Of a DNA stretch of 64,000 bases, positions 11,230 to 62,260 are shown in pieces. A program made the translations under genes and the position numbers. Where the stretch lies: sequence record MW679410.1. The stretch is one strand, 5' to 3'. Every line of letters starts with the position of its first letter. Position 1 is the first letter of the stretch. This DNA is from Escherichia phage C6. The notes beneath the pieces were generated by a model. It saw only the letters and a list, made by a program, of their open reading frames with translations, was not told the DNA's origin and searched no databases.

Positions 11230-11844
11230 TCAGTAAGAAAGAACGGAAAGATTCCAAATGGTGTAATTATTCCATTTAGGATTTCTCTCAATAGAGTCTA
11301 CGCGCAGCGTAGTTCCCGCAGGGAACATCATCTCATCTTCATCATTGATTAATTGTAAGTTTGCTATACGGGTAGATTCAGGAAATGCGCCTGGGAACTC
11401 TTCAGGGGGAGCAGCACATAACATTTTAAAGATTTCTTCCTGATAATTGTACACAAATGGCGCATCATTAATACAAAAGATATTAAATGTTCCATAGAAG
11501 TTATAAGATGCGAAATTCCTTGCCACGTTGAAGTCTTTAGAGAAGCTCATCACACGGTCGAATTCAATTACCGCACCTACACACATTGTGGACTCTAGAT
11601 ACTTCATAGTCTTTTTAGATATGCCGCGATAGAGCTTATCAGGCACTACAGAAGTCAGGTTCTTACGGATGATTTTGTTCAGAGTTTCCTGGATACAATC
11701 TGGTTTATTTTCCATGCACTGCCAGAGGGTACTCTGTTCTAAATCAGAATACACCTCATCAATTTCTATCTGAGTATTCTCACGGAAATCATCGCATTTG
11801 ACATTGTTGATAAATTCTGCTAATTTATGGCTCGGATATAACAT
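11230..11844 (-). CDS. modB: ADP-ribosyltransferase ModB-like
   Basis: 204 aa; R-S-E ART signature: LYRG, SFS, and EDEMMF glutamate motif. Confidence 0.7.
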   Translation of the reverse strand: MLYPSHKLAEFINNVKCDDFRENTQIEIDEVYSDLEQSTLWQCMENKPDCIQETLNKIIRKNLTSVVPDKLYRGISKKTMKYLESTMCVGAVIEFDRVMSFSKDFNVARNFASYNFYGTFNIFCINDAPFVYNYQEEIFKMLCAAPPEEFPGAFPESTRIANLQLINDEDEMMFPAGTTLRVDSIERNPKWNNYTIWNLSVLSY

Positions 11845-11898
11845 ATTATTCTCCTCAGTTGGTAGAAAGATAGTACCACAAGCTTCCTTGCCTGTAAA

Positions 11899-12468
11899 CT
11901 AAAAATCCAACATTTTTAAATGAATTGTTTTATACTCGATTTCGTACGGGTCTCTTTTGACGGTTTCGATTGCAACAATCTCAAATCGCGATTGGCTGGA
12001 GACCATGAACTCACATTCAGTTTCAACCATATCATAGAGGTCAATACGAGTTTCATCAATTTCAAGGTCGTCTACATTCCCTGCAAGAACAAGGTCGATA
12101 GCATGGTTGTAGTAGTCGAAAATGAACGGTGCATTCCTGAGACTTAAAATGGTTTTGGTTCCGTATTCCCATGCCCCTGCAAACTGACGAGCCTGAGAGT
12201 ATTGTGTACTAAAAGAAGTAACGCGACCAGGAGACCATTGACACCCAACAGAAAGAACTTCAAGTTGCTCAAGTTCTCTGGTGGTAATCCCACGATACAA
12301 CTCTACTGGAACCGCTGAAGTAACATGCTTGCGAACCAGTTTGTCGAGGTCGTAATGGAAGTTAGGGTCCTTTTTAGCATCCAGACATTTCTCTAACAAC
12401 GCTTGTTCAGATTTTGAGAATTTGGAATTGATTCGGTCTTGATAAAGACATTTTTGTTCGATGTTCAT
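11899..12468 (-). CDS. modA: ADP-ribosyltransferase ModA-like
   Basis: 189 aa; LYRG arginine motif, TSFST, ECEF glutamate motif; paralog of adjacent ORF. Confidence 0.7.
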   Translation of the reverse strand: MNIEQKCLYQDRINSKFSKSEQALLEKCLDAKKDPNFHYDLDKLVRKHVTSAVPVELYRGITTRELEQLEVLSVGCQWSPGRVTSFSTQYSQARQFAGAWEYGTKTILSLRNAPFIFDYYNHAIDLVLAGNVDDLEIDETRIDLYDMVETECEFMVSSQSRFEIVAIETVKRDPYEIEYKTIHLKMLDF

Positions 12469-53923: not shown

Positions 53924-54015
53924 ACAAATGTCCTTTGTTGTTTTATACTATTTGCCTTTCGGCCTTAACCGATAGCGATTACCAAAAGCTAAAGCTCTAC
54001 GGTTAGTATTATTAT

Positions 54016-54294
54016 TTATAGCTTTTTAAGCTTACGACAATAAGAATAGAACACGTCGTTAAAATTATATTCAACCCAATTCCTCTGTATAGGCGAGGTA
54101 ATGGAAAGCATATAATGCGCTTTAATTAAATCCATCCCATTTTTATTAGGACACTCTTTATTATTAGCATTATACGTCGCTGCTACAACCTCTATCTCTC
54201 TTTTGTAAGCCACACCATCCATGATAGGCAAAAGAACAATATAAGAAATAGCCACAGCGAACGCTAGAATTAAAATCTTTGAATTTAGGTCCAT
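54016..54294 (-). CDS. membrane protein (92 aa)
   Basis: N-terminal TM helix. Confidence 0.5.
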   Translation of the reverse strand: MDLNSKILILAFAVAISYIVLLPIMDGVAYKREIEVVAATYNANNKECPNKNGMDLIKAHYMLSITSPIQRNWVEYNFNDVFYSYCRKLKKL

Positions 54295-54301
54295 AGTACC
54301 C

Positions 54302-54874
54302 TCAACTCGTTATTTCTATCCAGTGCTTCCTGCACAATGACACGTAAGAATCGTTGCCACCTATAGAAACTTGGGCTCCGTCCTTAATTGCGATACCATC
54401 TTGGATACGAGCCGTCATAGTAGCTTTACGGCCGCAATGGCACACACCTTTGTACTCAACGAGTTTATCTGCTGTAGCGAGTAATTCAGCAGAGCCAGGA
54501 AACAGTTTACCCTGAAAATCAGTTCTTAGTCCATAGCACATAACCGGAACATTATAATTGTCTACTATCTTTGCCAGTTGTTTTATCTGTACAGGTTCTA
54601 AGAATTGCGCTTCATCCACAAACACACAGTGGATATCTTTTTGAGATTCAGCCCAACGATAGAACTCGTATAGGTCCATATTCGGAGTCACTGCATTAGC
54701 CTCTTGGCTAATCCCTATACGAGACGAAATGCTATGGCTTGATTCTCTATTGTCTATCGCAGGCTTTAAAAGAAGTACGCCCATACCACGTTCTTTGTAG
54801 TTATGAGCGGCTGTTAGCAATGAAGCAGTCTTTCCAGAATTCATTGCAGCATAGTGAAAATAAAGTTGGGCCAT
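54302..54874 (-). CDS. tk: thymidine kinase
   Basis: 190 aa; Walker A MNSGKTASLL; C-terminal zinc cluster CHCGRKA...CRKH. Confidence 0.9.
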   Translation of the reverse strand: MAQLYFHYAAMNSGKTASLLTAAHNYKERGMGVLLLKPAIDNRESSHSISSRIGISQEANAVTPNMDLYEFYRWAESQKDIHCVFVDEAQFLEPVQIKQLAKIVDNYNVPVMCYGLRTDFQGKLFPGSAELLATADKLVEYKGVCHCGRKATMTARIQDGIAIKDGAQVSIGGNDSYVSLCRKHWIEITS

Positions 54875-54883
54875 ATTACCTTC

Positions 54884-55090
54884 TTAAAGACTATTTACAT
54901 AAGCTATTAATTCATTTTCTTTCTCATCAAATCGATTGGCAAATTCTTCCTGATGTTCGGGAGATAGCGGGCCGTATTCATCATAAAAGGCGTTTGCTTC
55001 TGTATGCTCGTCCAAAAGCTCATGGATAAGCTCAAACAATTTATCTTTCTGTTCTTTACTCAGACTCATAACCATTGCACCTTTAAGCAA
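54884..55090 (-). CDS. hypothetical acidic protein (68 aa)
   Basis: ORF. Confidence 0.5.
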   Translation of the reverse strand: MLKGAMVMSLSKEQKDKLFELIHELLDEHTEANAFYDEYGPLSPEHQEEFANRFDEKENELIAYVNSL

Positions 55091-55278
55091 TATTCTTCTA
55101 CATGCTGTTTACGTTTATTTTTATCTATAAAAGTATATTCAACATATTCACCGATATACCATTTATCGGTGTTGTGTTGACTTTTTATAGGGCATTTAGT
55201 TACTCGGGTTTCGGTCCAGTGTCGAATAATTTCCGCTTTGTTTTTAGGGTCAAACGGATGCGGGTAATGGGCTTTCAT
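55066..55278 (-). CDS. hypothetical protein (70 aa)
   Basis: ORF. Confidence 0.5.
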   Translation of the reverse strand: MKAHYPHPFDPKNKAEIIRHWTETRVTKCPIKSQHNTDKWYIGEYVEYTFIDKNKRKQHVEEYCLKVQWL

Positions 55279-55717
55279 AATCTACCACCACTAAATTAAT
55301 ATCAGGAGTAAACAAATTAATCAATTGATAAACCTTGTCCCAATCACCACCAGCAATACCACAACCAATGCGAGGAATATAAATTCTTGGTTTAAACAAA
55401 AGACCTTTTGCGGTACGGTTTAATTCTATCATACAGTTTACTAAAGCACCATAATCAAGATTAGGGCCTGGTTCATATTGGGTATATAAATTATAGCAAA
55501 TTTGGCCGTTATTACCTGTGGCTTGAGTAAACGTGCCAAGTTTTTCCAAATTGCCTAAATAAGTGGTTTTATCGATAGCGAGAATAGGTGGATAAGCCTT
55601 AGCCAATTGTCCGGCTACACCTGAACCCATTGTGTGGAAACAGTTACACCCGTGTGCAACATTATTACCTTGAAGAAATAGGGCGACGATATCGCCCTTA
55701 ATATAATCAATAATCAT
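55250..55717 (-). CDS. macro-domain protein (ADP-ribose binding/hydrolase)
   Basis: 155 aa; GNNVAHGCNCFHTMGSGVAGQL resembles the N-A-A-N...G-G-G-V macro motif; second glycine-rich loop IGCGIAGG. Confidence 0.6.
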   Translation of the reverse strand: MIIDYIKGDIVALFLQGNNVAHGCNCFHTMGSGVAGQLAKAYPPILAIDKTTYLGNLEKLGTFTQATGNNGQICYNLYTQYEPGPNLDYGALVNCMIELNRTAKGLLFKPRIYIPRIGCGIAGGDWDKVYQLINLFTPDINLVVVDYESPLPASV

Positions 55718-56070
55718 TTAGAGTTTAATCCTCGATTGTAAGAATCAACGAGTCTGTCTACCATAGACGCGCACATTTCTTTGTACTTTTTATCAGATGG
55801 AATACATTCAGTAACGTTTAGACGTTGCTCGTATCTTTTAGAAAGAGTTTTCTCTTTCATTCTGCGATGCTCTACGTCGTTCTGTCCATCTTTAAAAGCA
55901 GCTGTGATTTTTGAACTGAATTCGATAACGCATTCAGTATTACTTGGATGACAATAATCTTTTGCTGTACGGGTAGCATACTCAACAATTGAATTATTGC
56001 TATCATCAACTTGTGACGCTAATACTCCCGGAGCGATCAACATAAGCGCTATAGTCATCTGTTTAATCAT
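55714..56070 (-). CDS. secreted protein (118 aa; vs-position)
   Basis: N-terminal signal peptide MIKQMTIALMLIAPGVLAS. Confidence 0.5.
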   Translation of the reverse strand: MIKQMTIALMLIAPGVLASQVDDSNNSIVEYATRTAKDYCHPSNTECVIEFSSKITAAFKDGQNDVEHRRMKEKTLSKRYEQRLNVTECIPSDKKYKEMCASMVDRLVDSYNRGLNSK

Positions 56071-56610
56071 TTAATATACCGCCTCAAACATCTTTTTAGA
56101 TTTTAGGTAATTGGCCTTTTCTAGAACTTCAGAAGCATATTTACTGCCTGCTTTGACGTTCCAGCCCGCATTATAAGAAGCAATCGCTTTTCTCAGGTCA
56201 CCTTTGTGAACATCAATCCAATAAGACAGTTCAATGTAGGCCCAAGAGGCACTGTTCTGTCGTTTTTGGACCATACGAATTATTTCTTTGTCAGACATCT
56301 TCCAACCTACCTGTTGAACACGACTTCTTAACGTAGGCAAGTAATTTTGGAACATGCCATAAGCATGGTGCTTATCTTTATTTAAACCTTGATTAATTCC
56401 GGCGGATGATTCCTGCCATAGTAATCCGGCCATGATATATCCTAATCCTTTTTGATTAGGGTTTTCTTTGAACTTTCCCGACTTTTGGTATTGTTCACCG
56501 AAAGCATACGCATAATGTAAATTATCGAGTTGTTCATTACTGAAAGTAGGCTCTACGCTATGGGCAGACATACTAACTGTCAATAGTAAAGTGGCTAATA
56601 CTTTTTTCAT
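56071..56610 (-). CDS. secreted lytic-transglycosylase-like protein
   Basis: 179 aa; signal peptide; SLT-like catalytic segment LWQESS...HAYGMFQ. Confidence 0.5.
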   Translation of the reverse strand: MKKVLATLLLTVSMSAHSVEPTFSNEQLDNLHYAYAFGEQYQKSGKFKENPNQKGLGYIMAGLLWQESSAGINQGLNKDKHHAYGMFQNYLPTLRSRVQQVGWKMSDKEIIRMVQKRQNSASWAYIELSYWIDVHKGDLRKAIASYNAGWNVKAGSKYASEVLEKANYLKSKKMFEAVY

Positions 56611-56622
56611 GAGACCTCATTA

Positions 56623-57081
56623 TTAAAGATAGATTACTTTAGTGCTTGTTTTACCTTCTAAACGTTTAGAGTTAACAAATGCCATACGGCATTTAAGGGA
56701 ATATCCTTTATCAGGATGTTTACGGTCTACTGTCATACCTAGCCATAAGGTTTTATCGGTAATTTCGAGACGCAATGGACGATACACTTTACCAGGGACA
56801 ATTTCAGATTCTACATCAGGCAGAGGTTCCTGGATTAAGAATTCATGGATTTCTTTAACATGGTTATGGAGTTGCTTGAATAAAGCAAAAACGTATTTTT
56901 CGTCGATTTCACGTTGGATAGCACGGTCCAACAAATGATTAGAGTACTTAATAAAGAAGGCTGGGACTCCGCTCTTAATGGCGGCTTTTTTGATGGACGC
57001 ATTCAGTTCACGGAATTCGGTTTCGAACTGACGACGTAATTTGTTGCGGCGGATGAATACTTCTGAATTAATTTCTGACAT
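56623..57081 (-). CDS. regB: endoribonuclease RegB
   Basis: 152 aa; EVFIRRNKLRRQFE...HLLDRAIQREIDE matches T4 RegB. Confidence 0.8.
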   Translation of the reverse strand: MSEINSEVFIRRNKLRRQFETEFRELNASIKKAAIKSGVPAFFIKYSNHLLDRAIQREIDEKYVFALFKQLHNHVKEIHEFLIQEPLPDVESEIVPGKVYRPLRLEITDKTLWLGMTVDRKHPDKGYSLKCRMAFVNSKRLEGKTSTKVIYL

Positions 57082-57109
57082 TTTGTAATCTCCTGTAGTT
57101 GATAGGTTT

Positions 57110-57138
57110 ATAGTATCATGTCTACAGGAGATGTAAAC
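57110..57138 (-). promoter_or_regulatory. T4-type early promoter cassette
   Basis: Minus strand GTTTAC-N17-TACTAT plus CTATCAAC leader. Confidence 0.6.
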
Positions 57139-57142
57139 TGCT

Positions 57143-57394
57143 TTATTCTTGGAATGGGGTAAGTTTTCCAGCAGCTGAACAAATTTCTACCAGTACAGGG
57201 TAAAACTCTTTCACTTGTTCAAGGCGTTGGGCGGCATACTGTACTTCGCCTTCTTCGAGACAAGCCAATTGGTCGTCAAGCAAGTATTTGTGGTAACCAG
57301 TACAGGCTTCACCGACGATACGCTGGAAATCTTGTAAACTTTCAATTTTCATCAGTATTTTTCCTCGGGTTGGAAAACGGAACGGCACGCCCAC
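57143..57394 (-). CDS. hypothetical protein (83 aa)
   Basis: ORF. Confidence 0.5.
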   Translation of the reverse strand: MGVPFRFPTRGKILMKIESLQDFQRIVGEACTGYHKYLLDDQLACLEEGEVQYAAQRLEQVKEFYPVLVEICSAAGKLTPFQE

Positions 57395-57630
57395 ATGCTT
57401 GCTTCTTTCAAGCGTTCGATTGCTGTACGAATCTGGGCTAGGCGTTCATGGGTGAGGTTAAATTCTTCATCACTCATTTTATCAACACCCGAGCATGTAA
57501 AGGCTTCAACATATTCTTCTTCCAAGGCTTTAAAGATTAACCCCAATCGAACTTCAGCATCTTTAATCGCATTCACTTTACTGATTTTGTCGTCGGTATG
57601 CGGTTTGTAACCCTTGATATCTTCAATCAT
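57352..57630 (-). CDS. hypothetical protein (92 aa)
   Basis: ORF. Confidence 0.5.
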   Translation of the reverse strand: MIEDIKGYKPHTDDKISKVNAIKDAEVRLGLIFKALEEEYVEAFTCSGVDKMSDEEFNLTHERLAQIRTAIERLKEASMWACRSVFQPEEKY

Positions 57631-57845
57631 TTCACTTCCTCATCAGATGCAGTATCATATTCTACCAAACGAAGCCCATCATATCCACCACTAACAGAGA
57701 TATATGTGCTCGGATAAACGGTTTCTTTACCATTCCATTGTCCACCATCCCAGCATTCCAAAAAGCCTTGTTCGCCCTGTTCGTGGAACCAGTCAACAAA
57801 CATCTTCAGAGCTTCATCAGAGCCTTCAATTGTCAATTTAGACAT
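57627..57845 (-). CDS. hypothetical protein (72 aa)
   Basis: ORF. Confidence 0.5.
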   Translation of the reverse strand: MSKLTIEGSDEALKMFVDWFHEQGEQGFLECWDGGQWNGKETVYPSTYISVSGGYDGLRLVEYDTASDEEVK

Positions 57846-58182
57846 ATTTCTTCCAGTCAGAAATCATATGAATCTCTTGGTCATAAGTTAAGAGACTGCG
57901 AGTAATAATACCCTTACAAGGCCCTGAGATGAACTCGAGAGTGAAGTAAGGAACCTGTTTCATTAATCGGATACTTGGGGCATGACATCTAAAACGAGAG
58001 CCCTTAAAGGGCCCTGTCATGAACACGTATTCTAGTGGGTAAAAATAAGCATATTCAAAATTCGCGGTAAGGTCCTCTCTTCGAACCTTACGTGAGAAAT
58101 AACAGAACTCAAAAAGTTCTTCATCAGTCATCATTGCATTCCTATCACAAAGAACAGAGGCAAAGGTTTGTCGCCTTGGCAC
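57838..58182 (-). CDS. hypothetical protein (start ambiguous, about 98-114 aa)
   Basis: ORF. Confidence 0.5.
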   Translation of the reverse strand: MPRRQTFASVLCDRNAMMTDEELFEFCYFSRKVRREDLTANFEYAYFYPLEYVFMTGPFKGSRFRCHAPSIRLMKQVPYFTLEFISGPCKGIITRSLLTYDQEIHMISDWKKYV

Positions 58183-59639: not shown

Positions 59640-59942
59640 TTATTTACCTTTAATTGCTTTAGCTGCTTCGGTAGCCGCTTGCTGAAGGTCATCCATAGAC
59701 ATACCAAACTTAGAAGCAAAGTTATCAATTTTCTTTTCGACAGAATTCAAAGGCTTGGCCTGTTTACCTTCATTAGCGCCCGGGAGAGCGAGAATACGCT
59801 CTTTCTCAATATAAAGGCTTACAAGTTTCTTACGGTCTTTATCTGGCAAATCATGAAATGAATGGGCCTTTTTATTTACGGCGGCTTCTAATTTACCTGC
59901 AGTTACGCGGGCTTCAGTGATAAATTCTTGATAGGTTTTCAT
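59640..59942 (-). CDS. internal protein with capsid-targeting sequence
   Basis: 100 aa; N-terminus MKTYQEFITEA. Confidence 0.7.
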   Translation of the reverse strand: MKTYQEFITEARVTAGKLEAAVNKKAHSFHDLPDKDRKKLVSLYIEKERILALPGANEGKQAKPLNSVEKKIDNFASKFGMSMDDLQQAATEAAKAIKGK

Positions 59943-59983: not shown

Positions 59984-60580
59984 TTAATTACCACGGGCCG
60001 CATTAGCAACGGCGTAAGCGTACTGGATATTAGCGTCTTTAAACGTACCTTTAGAGGTATCTAGTTCTGCCTTAAAGCCAGCTTTAGTCATAACATCAGC
60101 GAATTCTTTACGGAAAGCCATTGTATCAAGACCTTTCCATGTTGATTTGTGCTTGGCAAATTCAAGACCAGCGAAGTTGACAGCCTTAGCCAATTTATTA
60201 TCAATAGCCCATTTACCTGCTTTAGGTACAAATACCGGGCCTTTCTGTTTAGAGAACAGTTTTAAATTCCAGCGACGAAGGTCACCGTCGGCTTTAATAA
60301 AAGCTGCGTCCAAGTTACTAGCAACAACATCTTGGATATGGCCAAATTTAAGTCCATCAGCTTCAATATTTAGGTCGTTACGCCAGCGAAGTCCTTCCCA
60401 GGCGAAAGCTTTAAAGTCGGAAGCCTTTGTAGCTAAATACCGTTCAATAGGAGCTGTTTTAGCGTCAAAACCGTTTCCTGGGTTGTCAACGCCGTTTCCT
60501 CGGTAAGTCCACTCATCTTTATTAATGCCTTGGACCTTTCCTACAGAAGCTTCGGCGATAAATTCTTTATACGTTTTCAT
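59984..60580 (-). CDS. internal protein (IPIII-like) with capsid-targeting sequence
   Basis: 198 aa; N-terminus MKTYKEFIAEA; close to T4 IPIII length. Confidence 0.7.
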   Translation of the reverse strand: MKTYKEFIAEASVGKVQGINKDEWTYRGNGVDNPGNGFDAKTAPIERYLATKASDFKAFAWEGLRWRNDLNIEADGLKFGHIQDVVASNLDAAFIKADGDLRRWNLKLFSKQKGPVFVPKAGKWAIDNKLAKAVNFAGLEFAKHKSTWKGLDTMAFRKEFADVMTKAGFKAELDTSKGTFKDANIQYAYAVANAARGN

Positions 60581-60662: not shown

Positions 60663-61061
60663 TTATTTGTAGGTTTTCATCCAATTCTTGAACAAAGCCG
60701 CGACGTCTTTCTCTTTAACGTTCAGTTTAACGTCCAACATTTTACCACCCGCTGCTCTCGTTTGGCGAATCTTAGCAGTACCGGTTTCACCATTCCACTC
60801 AACATAATACTGTCCAGTGTTCATTGCAATACCGTCACCGTAGTCTTCATTTTTAGAAGTGGTGAAGGCCAGCTTCATAGTCTTAGAGACGCGAGCCTGC
60901 ATGCCTGTCTGCAGAGCGTTACGAACTCGAATAACCTGAGGAGTGGCCTGGGTCAGGTTCTCATTCAGTTCTTCAGTGAACTCTTCAGATTCAAACATAT
61001 CCAAAAGTTCTTTAGATGCAGGAATTACATTCTCTGCGATAAATTCATTATAAGTTTTCAT
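60663..61061 (-). CDS. internal protein with capsid-targeting sequence
   Basis: 132 aa; N-terminus [11 protein letters not shown]. Confidence 0.7.
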
Positions 61062-61572: not shown

Positions 61573-62022
61573 TCAAAAGAGCGAATCTAAAACCTTAAAC
61601 ATCGACGGGCCCATGACATATTCCCATTGTGGACGTTTAATCAAAGCGAATGCATCGAATTCAGGAATCGTGCGACCGTCAGGGAATGTATGGTAAGCTG
61701 TACATTTGCAATCCTTGAACTGCTCGTGTTCCACAGGCACAGTATATAAGAACAGGTGTAGATTCTTATTGCTTGAATATTTGAACTCACCTAGGTCTTT
61801 CAGGAACGCAGGGTCGTATGCTGTGAATCCAATCTCTTCTTCGGTTTCACGCATCGCCGCTTGAATAGGCTCTTCGCCTGGTTCTACATGACCTTTAGGG
61901 ATGTCCCATTTATGACGCATATTCTCTGGATTACGAGAGCCTGTTACACGGCCCATGACCAGTTCTTTATCAACGGTCATGAATAAAATACCTGCCGATA
62001 ATTCTTTCGCTTTCTTACTCAT
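61573..62022 (-). CDS. nudE: Nudix hydrolase NudE
   Basis: Nudix box GHVEPGEEPIQAAMRETEEEIGF; start placed at an internal Met to avoid overlap with the upstream ORF. Confidence 0.75.
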   Translation of the reverse strand: MSKKAKELSAGILFMTVDKELVMGRVTGSRNPENMRHKWDIPKGHVEPGEEPIQAAMRETEEEIGFTAYDPAFLKDLGEFKYSSNKNLHLFLYTVPVEHEQFKDCKCTAYHTFPDGRTIPEFDAFALIKRPQWEYVMGPSMFKVLDSLF

Positions 62023-62260
62023 CGTCTCGTTCCCATGATTGTTTAAAAATATCTCGTATAATAATTTCAACACACGTTTCTGTTGACGGACTTTCACTAT
62101 CAGATATTTGGACCATATAATCAGAAATAGGTCGGAACATATCCAAGTCGCTTTCTAAATCTTCTTTGATTTTCTCTTCTGATGTTCCGGTGTCATAGGA
62201 ATACAGATAAGAATCACATGACTCGGATTTAATATAAATTGCAATACTCATTTGCGGCAT
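62015..62260 (-). CDS. hypothetical acidic protein (81 aa)
   Basis: ORF. Confidence 0.5.
   Translation of the reverse strand: MPQMSIAIYIKSESCDSYLYSYDTGTSEEKIKEDLESDLDMFRPISDYMVQISDSESPSTETCVEIIIRDIFKQSWERDDE

What the first reader, a model, noticed from the sequence alone, without database searches (positions are those of the whole stretch)
55250..55717. Macro-domain protein in a genome that also encodes ADP-ribosyltransferases
The 155-aa ORF has a glycine-rich loop pattern (NNVAHG...GSGVAGQL and IGCGIAGG) typical of macro domains, which bind or hydrolyse ADP-ribose derivatives. The same window encodes ModA/ModB-like ADP-ribosyltransferases at 11230-12468. A phage macro domain could reverse host or phage ADP-ribosylation, or degrade ADP-ribose-based defence signals or DNA ADP-ribosylation by toxins.
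Basis: partly seen in the sequence, partly recalled or inferred. Interest (0 to 1): 0.5.

Follow-up and report, generated by a model that had tools for sequence, protein, structure and literature searches.

The report
T4 Tk.4/AdfM-type phage macrodomain gene
This is the well-conserved tk.4 gene of a T4-like coliphage, a small macrodomain enzyme whose T4 counterpart was recently shown to protect the phage from the DarTG2 DNA-ADP-ribosylating defence, so the finding is real but already explained.

Summary

The window is a Dhakavirus (IME08/JS98-like T4 relative). The gene is tk.4, sitting between vs and tk.3 exactly as in T4, and is 53% identical to T4 Tk.4.

A 2025 preprint showed that knocking out T4 tk.4 sensitises T4 to DarTG2, and renamed the gene adfM. 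The most likely function is therefore removal of ADP-ribose that DarT2 puts on thymidines of phage single-stranded DNA.

One nuance: the protein is not a DarG member. It is a single domain with no darT neighbour, and it has an invariant Gln80 where DarG and TARG1 have their catalytic Lys. That is the same substitution seen in Streptomyces SCO6735, a proven Lys-independent thymidine-ADP-ribose hydrolase.

The ModA/ModB-like genes at 11230-12468 are real, but a functional link to them is unlikely. They are arginine-specific enzymes, and the macrodomain family occurs in far more phage groups than they do.

Verdict: correct observation, essentially correct interpretation, already known, low interest.

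The parts
55250..55717 (-). tk.4 / adfM-type coding sequence: a 155-aa single-domain macrodomain protein
55729..55733 (-). GAGGA Shine-Dalgarno, 11 nt upstream of the ATG and lying inside the 3' end of vs
   Evidence: Read directly. T4 has an annotated ribosome-binding site at the same spacing.
55714..55717 (-). ATGA overlap of the vs stop codon (TGA) with the tk.4 start codon (ATG), indicating translational coupling
55643..55645 (-). Codon for Asn25. It is invariant and equivalent to SCO6735 Asn27 and DarG Asn22, within the HGCNC motif at residues 22-26.
   Evidence: Alignments. SCO6735 N27S loses almost all activity. In PhiKZ AdfM, mutating a conserved asparagine in the catalytic site reduces activity (construct named N23A).
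55604..55627 (-). First glycine-rich loop, GSGVAGQL (residues 31-38), following strand 2
   Evidence: G31 and G33 are conserved in every macrodomain aligned.
55478..55480 (-). Codon for Gln80, within NLYTQ. It occupies the position of the catalytic Lys80 of DarG, Lys84 of TARG1 and Gln85 of SCO6735.
   Evidence: Alignments. Invariant in 65 phage homologues and in 76 bacterial homologues. SCO6735 Q85A is inactive.
55346..55369 (-). Second glycine-rich (diphosphate-binding) loop, IGCGIAGG (residues 117-124). Ala122 sits at the position of TARG1 Asp125.
55250..55278 (-). 29-nt overlap between the tk.4 3' end and the start of tk.3 (DUF7202, ORF 55066-55278)
   Evidence: IME08 has the same arrangement.

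Best explanation
The gene is the Dhakavirus orthologue of T4 tk.4 (adfM). It encodes a stand-alone macrodomain ADP-ribosyl glycohydrolase of the TARG1/DarG/SCO6735 ('ALC1-like') class. Its position, translationally coupled to vs within the minus-strand tk-vs-regB gene run, suggests co-expression with those genes.

The proposed mechanism is as follows. The host toxin DarT2 ADP-ribosylates thymidines in single-stranded phage DNA. The phage enzyme binds the ADP-ribose in the cleft formed by Asn25, the GSG loop and the GCGIAGG loop, and hydrolyses the thymine-ribose bond. This restores replicable DNA and cancels DarTG2 abortive defence. Because Gln80 replaces the catalytic lysine of DarG and TARG1, the chemistry is inferred to be the lysine-independent, water-mediated mechanism proposed for SCO6735. 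In that mechanism Gln positions the distal ribose and Asn locks the Gln in place.

Shown here: the ORF, the macro fold, orthology with T4 tk.4, and the active-site residues. Shown elsewhere: the T4 tk.4 knock-out phenotype and the SCO6735 enzymology. Inferred: that this protein is catalytically active, that its substrate is thymidine-linked ADP-ribose, and that it protects this particular phage.
For: - Orthology: 53% identity over the full length to T4 Tk.4, and the same vs|tk.4|tk.3 synteny in IME08, RB32 and T4.
- Function of the orthologue: in a T4 transposon screen on a DarTG2 host, tk.4 was the single significant hit, and a clean tk.4 knock-out became DarTG2-sensitive (bioRxiv 10.1101/2025.11.20.689424). 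T4 lacking adfA and adfN stays DarTG2-resistant, which predicted such a factor (PMC11825919).
- Active site: Gln80 and Asn25 align with SCO6735 Gln85 and Asn27. SCO6735 lacks the Lys, cleaves DarT-made thymidine-ADPr on DNA and rescues DarT toxicity; Q85A is inactive and N27S nearly so (PMC9411070).
- Conservation: H22, G23, N25, D49, N76, Y78, Q80, G118, G120 and W126 are invariant, and synonymous changes outnumber non-synonymous ones 13 to 3 against IME08.
- Defence-library hit: the only PADLOC match is DarG (E 5.8e-6).
Against: - No enzymology exists for any Tk.4-family protein. The T4 evidence is genetic, comes from a preprint, and was obtained under special conditions (M9 glucose, 30 C).
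- This protein is only 53% identical to T4 Tk.4 and differs from it in the diphosphate loop (GCGIAGGDW against GAGIGKGNW).
- It lacks the DarG/TARG1 catalytic lysine.
- It also lacks the extended, Lys-bearing 'mobile loop' that the SCO6735 authors linked to DNA activity.
- Close stand-alone homologues are common in bacteria with no conserved DarT neighbour, so the ancestral substrate of the family need not be a DarT product.
Confidence: 0.72

Rival explanations
1. The protein processes small-molecule ADP-ribose derivatives. It would act as an ADP-ribose-1''-phosphate phosphatase, an O-acetyl-ADP-ribose deacetylase, or a degrader of ADP-ribose-derived immune signals such as those of Thoeris or other TIR systems. 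This is what the database labels 'phosphatase' and 'O-acetyl-ADP-ribose deacetylase' imply.
For: - RefSeq and PHROG label the family 'phosphatase', and JGI labels homologues 'O-acetyl-ADP-ribose deacetylase'.
- Stand-alone bacterial homologues have no toxin partner.
Against: - The labels are transferred by homology and were never tested.
- Only the N-terminal part of Poa1p aligns by sequence. Poa1p has Ser rather than Gln at position 80 and carries a roughly 20-residue insertion before the second glycine-rich loop.
- In T4 the only condition reported to make tk.4 important is DarTG2.
Confidence: 0.1
2. The protein is a broad eraser of base-linked ADP-ribose on nucleic acids. DarT2-modified DNA would be only one of its substrates, alongside uracil-ADPr on RNA or the products of other DNA- or RNA-targeting ADP-ribosyltransferase toxins.
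For: SCO6735, the closest characterised enzyme with the same Gln active site, also removes uracil-linked ADPr from RNA efficiently (PMC13036486) and acts on protein substrates as well. The family is very widespread in phages of many hosts and in bacteria. That breadth is hard to tie to a single defence system.
Against: No bacterial uracil-ADPr RNA toxin that acts on T-even phages is documented in the papers read here. The T4 screen reported a phenotype only with DarTG2 among the systems tested.
Confidence: 0.1
3. The protein reverses or tunes the phage's own Alt/ModA/ModB ADP-ribosylation or RNAylation of host proteins. This is the link suggested by the finding's title.
For: ModA- and ModB-like genes are present in the same window.
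Against: - T4 Alt and ModA modify arginine residues (PMC8120803).
- Arginine-ADPr is removed by DraG/ARH enzymes, while MacroD/TARG1-type macrodomains cleave Asp/Glu esters, OAADPr and nucleic-acid adducts.
- The macrodomain family is found in 2,735 phage records across many genera, against 1,063 mostly enterobacterial T4-like records for Mod-like genes, so most carriers have no detectable Mod homologue.
- The genes lie 43 kb apart in the window.
Confidence: 0.04
4. The protein protects without catalysis. It would bind ADP-ribosylated DNA, NAD-derived ligands or DarT2 itself, acting as a sponge or inhibitor. This is considered because the canonical catalytic lysine is missing.
For: Lys80 of DarG and Lys84 plus Asp125 of TARG1 are replaced by Gln80 and Ala122. 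Other anti-DarT factors, AdfA and AdfB, act by binding the toxin.
Against: SCO6735 has the same Gln and is a fast hydrolase. The whole set of ribose- and phosphate-contacting residues is invariant across more than 140 homologues. The protein has no counterpart of the DarG C-terminal DarT-binding domain, being a 155-aa single domain.
Confidence: 0.04

Closest known systems
Bacteriophage T4 Tk.4 = AdfM (anti-DarT factor Macrodomain; bioRxiv 10.1101/2025.11.20.689424)
   Same: Both are 155 aa and 53% identical over the full length. Both sit between vs and tk.3. They share the HGCNC, KLG, NLYTQ and G-x-G-I-x-x-G-x-W motifs and belong to the same PHROG.
   Different: 47% of residues differ, including the diphosphate loop (GCGIAGGDW here, GAGIGKGNW in T4). 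T4 has a 3-residue insertion after residue 63. The anti-DarTG2 phenotype has been shown only for T4.
Streptomyces coelicolor SCO6735 and Bacteroides BT1257 (PDB 5E3B, 2FG1/2AFC)
   Same: BT1257 is the best sequence and structure match in the PDB. Gln occupies the catalytic-Lys position, the Asn is conserved, and the GCGLAGG-x-W loop is shared. Both are stand-alone single-domain proteins. SCO6735 is a proven thymidine-ADPr DNA hydrolase.
   Different: Identity is only 26-28%. The loop after the Gln is 5-6 residues shorter here and lacks the two lysines linked to DNA activity. The phage family has HGCNC, D49 and Y78 signatures that SCO6735 lacks. SCO6735 is a cellular protein, described as DNA damage-inducible and linked to antibiotic production, not a viral counter-defence.
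DarG antitoxin macrodomain of DarTG2 (M. tuberculosis 5M3I, T. aquaticus 5M31/5M3E)
   Different: DarG has the catalytic Lys80 (FPTK); this protein has Gln. DarG is about 330-340 aa (model lengths 329 and 338) with a second, DarT2-interacting domain, and is encoded next to darT. This protein is 155 aa and sits among phage early genes. It scores 20 bits against the NCBIfam DarG cut-off of 250.
PhiKZ gp104, also named AdfM (Cell Rep 2026, PMC13309987)
   Same: A phage-encoded stand-alone macrodomain that counters DarTG2. It was shown in vitro to remove DarT2-made ADP-ribose from DNA.
   Different: A different subfamily: 20% identity, Lys-type FPTK active site as in DarG, and import into the phage nucleus. 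The shared name is a nomenclature coincidence.
Human TARG1/OARD1 (PDB 4J5R, 2LGR)
   Different: The TARG1 catalytic dyad Lys84/Asp125 corresponds to Gln80/Ala122 here.
Yeast Poa1p, ADP-ribose 1''-phosphate phosphatase (PDB 6LFQ)
   Different: Poa1p has Ser at the Gln80 position, a roughly 20-residue insertion before the second glycine-rich loop, and a different second loop (INSGIFGVPW). Only its N-terminal half aligns by sequence.

Membership tests
Macro domain superfamily (Pfam PF01661) | Profile match above the curated gathering score | tested here: met
   32.6 bits against a cut-off of 22, E 8.6e-8, covering profile positions 2-117 of 118.
Macro domain superfamily (Pfam PF01661) | Three-layer alpha/beta/alpha fold with a central mixed sheet | tested here: met
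Macro domain superfamily (Pfam PF01661) | ADP-ribose-binding elements: a conserved Asn after strand 1, a G-x-G loop after strand 2, and a second Gly-rich diphosphate loop | tested here: met
   N25, G31-S-G33 and G118-C-G-I-A-G-G124 align with the equivalent residues of DarG, TARG1 and SCO6735.
Macro domain superfamily (Pfam PF01661) | Binding or hydrolysis of ADP-ribose | not testable with these tools
   Requires biochemistry.
T4 Tk.4 / AdfM orthologous group | Full-length sequence similarity to T4 Tk.4 | tested here: met
   53% identity, 72% positives, 155 of 155 aa, E 2e-62. PHROG 335 at E 7e-67.
T4 Tk.4 / AdfM orthologous group | Conserved position between vs and tk.3 in the tk-vs-regB early region | tested here: met
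   Window ORF order tk, tk.2, tk.3, tk.4, vs, vs.1, regB, matching RB32 and T4.
T4 Tk.4 / AdfM orthologous group | Needed for growth on a DarTG2-expressing host | not testable with these tools
   Shown only for T4.
DarG antitoxin (DarTG2) | Catalytic lysine (Lys80) in the FPTK motif | tested here: not met
   Gln80 (NLYTQ) aligns with Lys80 of M. tuberculosis and T. aquaticus DarG.
DarG antitoxin (DarTG2) | Two-domain protein of about 330-340 aa with a second, DarT2-interacting domain | tested here: not met
   155 aa, one domain. Matches only positions 3-142 of 329 in the PADLOC model and 3-138 of 338 in the NCBIfam model.
DarG antitoxin (DarTG2) | Encoded in an operon with darT | tested here: not met
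   The flanking genes are vs and tk.3.
DarG antitoxin (DarTG2) | NCBIfam equivalog score above the cut-off | tested here: not met
   20.2 bits against 250.
SCO6735/BT1257 subclass of ALC1-like macrodomains | Gln in place of the catalytic Lys, held by the conserved Asn | tested here: met
   Q80 and N25 align with Gln85 and Asn27. Both are invariant in the family.
SCO6735/BT1257 subclass of ALC1-like macrodomains | Extended 'mobile loop', about 5 residues longer than in DarG/TARG1 and carrying Lys89 and Lys94 | tested here: not met
   The loop after Q80 has the DarG/TARG1 length and no lysines (QYEPGPNLDY).
SCO6735/BT1257 subclass of ALC1-like macrodomains | Hydrolysis of thymidine-linked ADP-ribose on single-stranded DNA | not testable with these tools
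   Shown for SCO6735; requires biochemistry here.
PhiKZ gp104-type AdfM | DarG-like Lys-type macrodomain closely related to gp104 | tested here: not met
   20% identity, pairwise E 0.005. gp104 has FPTK.
Poa1p-type ADP-ribose-1''-phosphate phosphatase | Full-length similarity to Poa1p including its active-site region | tested here: inconclusive

The most novel reading that the evidence does not exclude
The Tk.4-type 'AdfM' proteins of T-even phages may not be captured DarG antitoxins. They would instead belong to a separate, very large lineage of stand-alone Gln-type macrodomains, defined by the HGCNC ... D ... KLG ... NLYTQ ... GCGIAGGDW signature and shared with many bacteria. This lineage would work by a lysine-independent mechanism and could erase several kinds of base-linked ADP-ribose, including T-ADPr on DNA and U-ADPr on RNA. 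That would make these proteins broad-spectrum counter-defence enzymes rather than DarTG2-specific ones.
Probability: 0.3. Interest if true: 0.4.

Novelty: already known. Interest (0 to 1): 0.15.

Why it matters
The finding matters little as a discovery. The gene is annotated as tk.4, 'phosphatase' or 'macro domain protein' in near-identical phages, and the function of its T4 orthologue was assigned in 2025.

It is useful as annotation. It marks this Dhakavirus as probably resistant to DarTG2, which is relevant when choosing therapeutic phages against E. coli strains that carry DarTG.

It also flags two small points for specialists:
- The T-even AdfM has a Gln where DarG has its catalytic Lys, so its chemistry should resemble SCO6735 rather than DarG.
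- The name AdfM is now attached to two different macrodomain subfamilies.

Tried and rejected
1. Functional coupling to ModA/ModB: rejected on linkage chemistry and on phyletic distribution.
2. Filing the protein as a DarG: rejected. It has no catalytic Lys, no second domain and no darT neighbour, and it scores 20 against a cut-off of 250 bits.
3. A search for a conserved partner, such as DarT, next to bacterial homologues. ORFs within 2.5 kb of 76 loci were clustered by BLAST. No cluster was present in more than 10 loci, and the three largest (10 loci each) look like spurious ORFs in GC-rich DNA. ORF calling was crude and no profile search of neighbours was run, so this is a weak negative.
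4. A promoter scan of 54000-58000 gave 12 sigma-70-like sites against 11.3 expected, which is uninformative.
5. A search for a solved structure of the family found none. The best PDB sequence hit is BT1257 at E 5e-9.
6. A literature search on Poa1p catalytic residues found nothing usable in the held library.
7. Two paper look-ups and one paper search failed on term-format rules and were repeated or dropped.
8. The capped 1.84-billion-protein representative search was not run, because family size was already clear.

Full report
**Observation.** The window holds an ATG-initiated ORF of 155 aa at 55250..55717 on the minus strand. The start codon overlaps the stop codon of the upstream gene (ATGA), and a GAGGA lies 11 nt upstream. 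The last 29 nt overlap the start of the next gene. No competing ORF longer than 32 aa lies on the opposite strand inside the gene.

**Identity of the window and the gene.** A 3.2-kb stretch around the ORF is 97.5-98.6% identical to Escherichia phages AnYang, IME08, Bp7 and their relatives. These are Dhakavirus members of the Tevenvirinae. In IME08 the ORF is annotated tk.4, with product 'phosphatase', in the order tk, tk.2, tk.3, tk.4, vs, vs.1, regB. RB32 and the original T4 sequence entry have the same vs|tk.4|tk.3 arrangement and a 155-aa product. The window protein is 53% identical to T4 Tk.4 over its whole length. Against IME08 the gene shows 13 synonymous and 3 non-synonymous codon differences. 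By tblastn the family is present in 2,735 phage records, including phages of Pseudomonas, Vibrio, Acinetobacter, Aeromonas, Campylobacter and Salmonella.

**Fold.**
- Pfam Macro (PF01661) is matched above its gathering score: 32.6 against 22 bits, covering almost the whole model.
- PHROG 335 is matched at E 7e-67.
- An AlphaFold2 model built on 65 homologues has mean pLDDT 94.5 and pTM 0.89.
- Sequence and profile searches of the PDB give the same neighbours.

The protein therefore belongs to the TARG1/DarG/SCO6735 ('ALC1-like') class. No member of its own family has a solved structure.

**What is already published.** A November 2025 preprint screened a T4 transposon library on E. coli expressing DarTG2. 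The single significant hit was tk.4. A clean tk.4 knock-out was sensitised to DarTG2, and the authors renamed the gene adfM (anti-DarT factor Macrodomain). They proposed enzymatic removal of ADP-ribose from DNA but presented no enzymology. Earlier work had shown that T4 lacking both adfA and adfN (gene 30.3, a NADAR enzyme against DarTG1) remains resistant to DarTG2. That result predicted a further factor. DarT2 ADP-ribosylates thymidine in single-stranded DNA, and its antitoxin DarG2 carries a macrodomain that reverses this.

**Active site.** I recovered the exact PDB sequences of DarG from two species, BT1257, SCO6735, TARG1 and Poa1p from printed alignments. I took PhiKZ gp104 from the paper's methods section. 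All were aligned with the window protein and T4 Tk.4.
- The window's NLYTQ aligns with NFPTK of DarG, YLITK of TARG1, MFPTK of PhiKZ gp104, NMIGQ of SCO6735 and BT1257, and CLFTS of Poa1p.
- Gln80 therefore sits where DarG has Lys80 and TARG1 has Lys84. Ala122 sits where TARG1 has Asp125.
- Gln80, Asn25, His22, Gly23, Asp49, Asn76, Tyr78, Gly118, Gly120 and Trp126 are invariant in 65 phage homologues.
- Asp49, Asn76, Tyr78 and Gln80 are also invariant, and Lys59 is nearly so (74 of 76), in 76 bacterial homologues. None of these columns was part of the search pattern.

The precedent for this active site is SCO6735. It lacks both TARG1 catalytic residues, yet it cleaves DarT-made thymidine-ADPr on DNA and rescues DarT toxicity. 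Its Q85A mutant is inactive and its N27S mutant nearly so, and a water-mediated, backbone-assisted mechanism was proposed. One difference remains: the loop after the Gln is 5-6 residues shorter here than in SCO6735 and BT1257, and it lacks the lysines those authors linked to DNA activity.

**Relation to DarG and to the other 'AdfM'.** The protein fails every DarG membership feature tested. It has no catalytic Lys. It is a single domain of 155 aa, against models of 329 and 338 positions. It has no darT neighbour. It scores 20 bits against an NCBIfam cut-off of 250. It therefore works like a DarG macrodomain without being one. A 2026 Cell Reports paper independently gave the name AdfM to PhiKZ gp104, which was shown in vitro to remove DarT2-made ADP-ribose. 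That protein is Lys-type and only 20% identical to the window protein. The two 'AdfM' proteins belong to different subfamilies.

**Bacterial relatives.** A scan of one genome per species found at least 480 stretches encoding relatives at up to about 43% identity. They occur in Rhodobacteraceae, Verrucomicrobia, Planctomycetota, Desulfobacterales and other groups. In the 76 loci I could parse, most are stand-alone proteins of 146-190 aa. Clustering of neighbouring ORFs found no partner shared by more than 10 loci. This gives no support for a DarT-linked origin, but it is a weak negative.

**The ADP-ribosyltransferase link.** The ORFs at 11230-11844 and 11899-12468 are genuine ModA- and ModB-like genes. 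They match PHROG 832 at E 2e-44 and 1e-37, correspond to the IME08 genes annotated modA and modB, and show the R / S-x-S / E-x-E pattern on direct reading. Three things argue against a functional link:
- T4 Alt and ModA are arginine-specific.
- Arginine-ADPr is reversed by DraG/ARH enzymes, whereas MacroD/TARG1-type macrodomains act on Asp/Glu esters, OAADPr and nucleic-acid adducts.
- Mod-like genes occur in 1,063 phage records, mostly from enterobacterial hosts, against 2,735 taxonomically much broader records for the macrodomain.

I therefore treat the co-occurrence as true but incidental.

**Rival functions.** The 'phosphatase' and 'O-acetyl-ADP-ribose deacetylase' labels are homology transfers. 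Poa1p shares the fold and the H-x-C-N-C motif but differs at position 80 and in the second loop. A broader nucleic-acid eraser role is possible, because SCO6735 also removes uracil-linked ADPr from RNA. A non-catalytic role is unlikely given the SCO6735 precedent and the invariant pocket residues.

**Verdict.** The gene is the tk.4/adfM orthologue of a Dhakavirus. It most likely removes DarT2-made ADP-ribose from thymidines of phage DNA by a lysine-independent, SCO6735-like mechanism (confidence 0.72 for the whole chain; above 0.95 for 'macrodomain'). This is already known biology, so interest is low. The only modestly new points are the Gln-type active site of the T-even AdfM lineage and its separateness from DarG and from PhiKZ AdfM.

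Noticed in passing
window 55250-55717 compared with PhiKZ gp104 (sequence from PMC13309987): Two independent papers use the name AdfM for different macrodomain subfamilies. T4 Tk.4 is Gln-type (NLYTQ). PhiKZ gp104 is Lys-type (FPTK, DarG-like). The window protein is only 20% identical to gp104.
   Followed up: yes
window 61573-62097 (-): A Nudix hydrolase ORF (Pfam NUDIX, E 1e-14) lies just beyond the e lysozyme gene, in the position of nudE in IME08. From my own knowledge, T4 NudE hydrolyses ADP-ribose among other substrates, so it could dispose of the macrodomain's product.
   Followed up: partly
window 59640-59942, 59984-60580, 60663-61061 (-): Three consecutive ORFs begin with MKTY[QKN]EFI[TA]E. 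From my own knowledge this is the capsid-targeting leader of T4 internal proteins. The window differs from IME08 here: IME08 annotates two such genes in this stretch, an internal head protein (orf107) and ipII, separated by denV, so the internal-protein cassette is variable.
   Followed up: no
window 55714-56070 (-): The vs gene (valyl-tRNA synthetase modifier) is translationally coupled to tk.4 through an ATGA overlap. The same preprint that assigned tk.4 reports T4 vs as the strongest depleted gene in minimal medium.
   Followed up: no
window 55680-55698 (-): An 8-bp GC-rich hairpin (AGGGCGATATCGTCGCCCT) followed by a T-rich tail lies inside the 5' end of the tk.4 coding sequence and was flagged by the terminator scan. 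It may be chance or a regulatory or RNA-stability element.
   Followed up: no
loci L006-L085 (bacterial genomes): Stand-alone homologues of about 150 aa (32-43% identity) carrying the same invariant D49, N76, Y78 and Q80 are common in Rhodobacteraceae, Verrucomicrobia, Planctomycetota, Desulfobacterales and other groups. No conserved neighbouring gene was found. Their cellular role is unknown.
   Followed up: partly
locus L005 7716-9072 (IME08 region between genes 61.1 and sp, equivalent to roughly window 16.9-18.3 kb): No gene in this interval is labelled 61.2 (from my own knowledge, the T4 gene name for adfA, the anti-DarT1 factor). Only three short hypothetical ORFs are annotated there. This phage group may lack adfA, as some Tevenvirinae do.
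   Followed up: no
window 56071-56610 (-): The vs.1 ORF gives only a sub-threshold match to the SLT lytic transglycosylase domain (E 0.0099, 15.9 bits against a cut-off of 21.3) and has an N-terminal signal-like segment.
   Followed up: no
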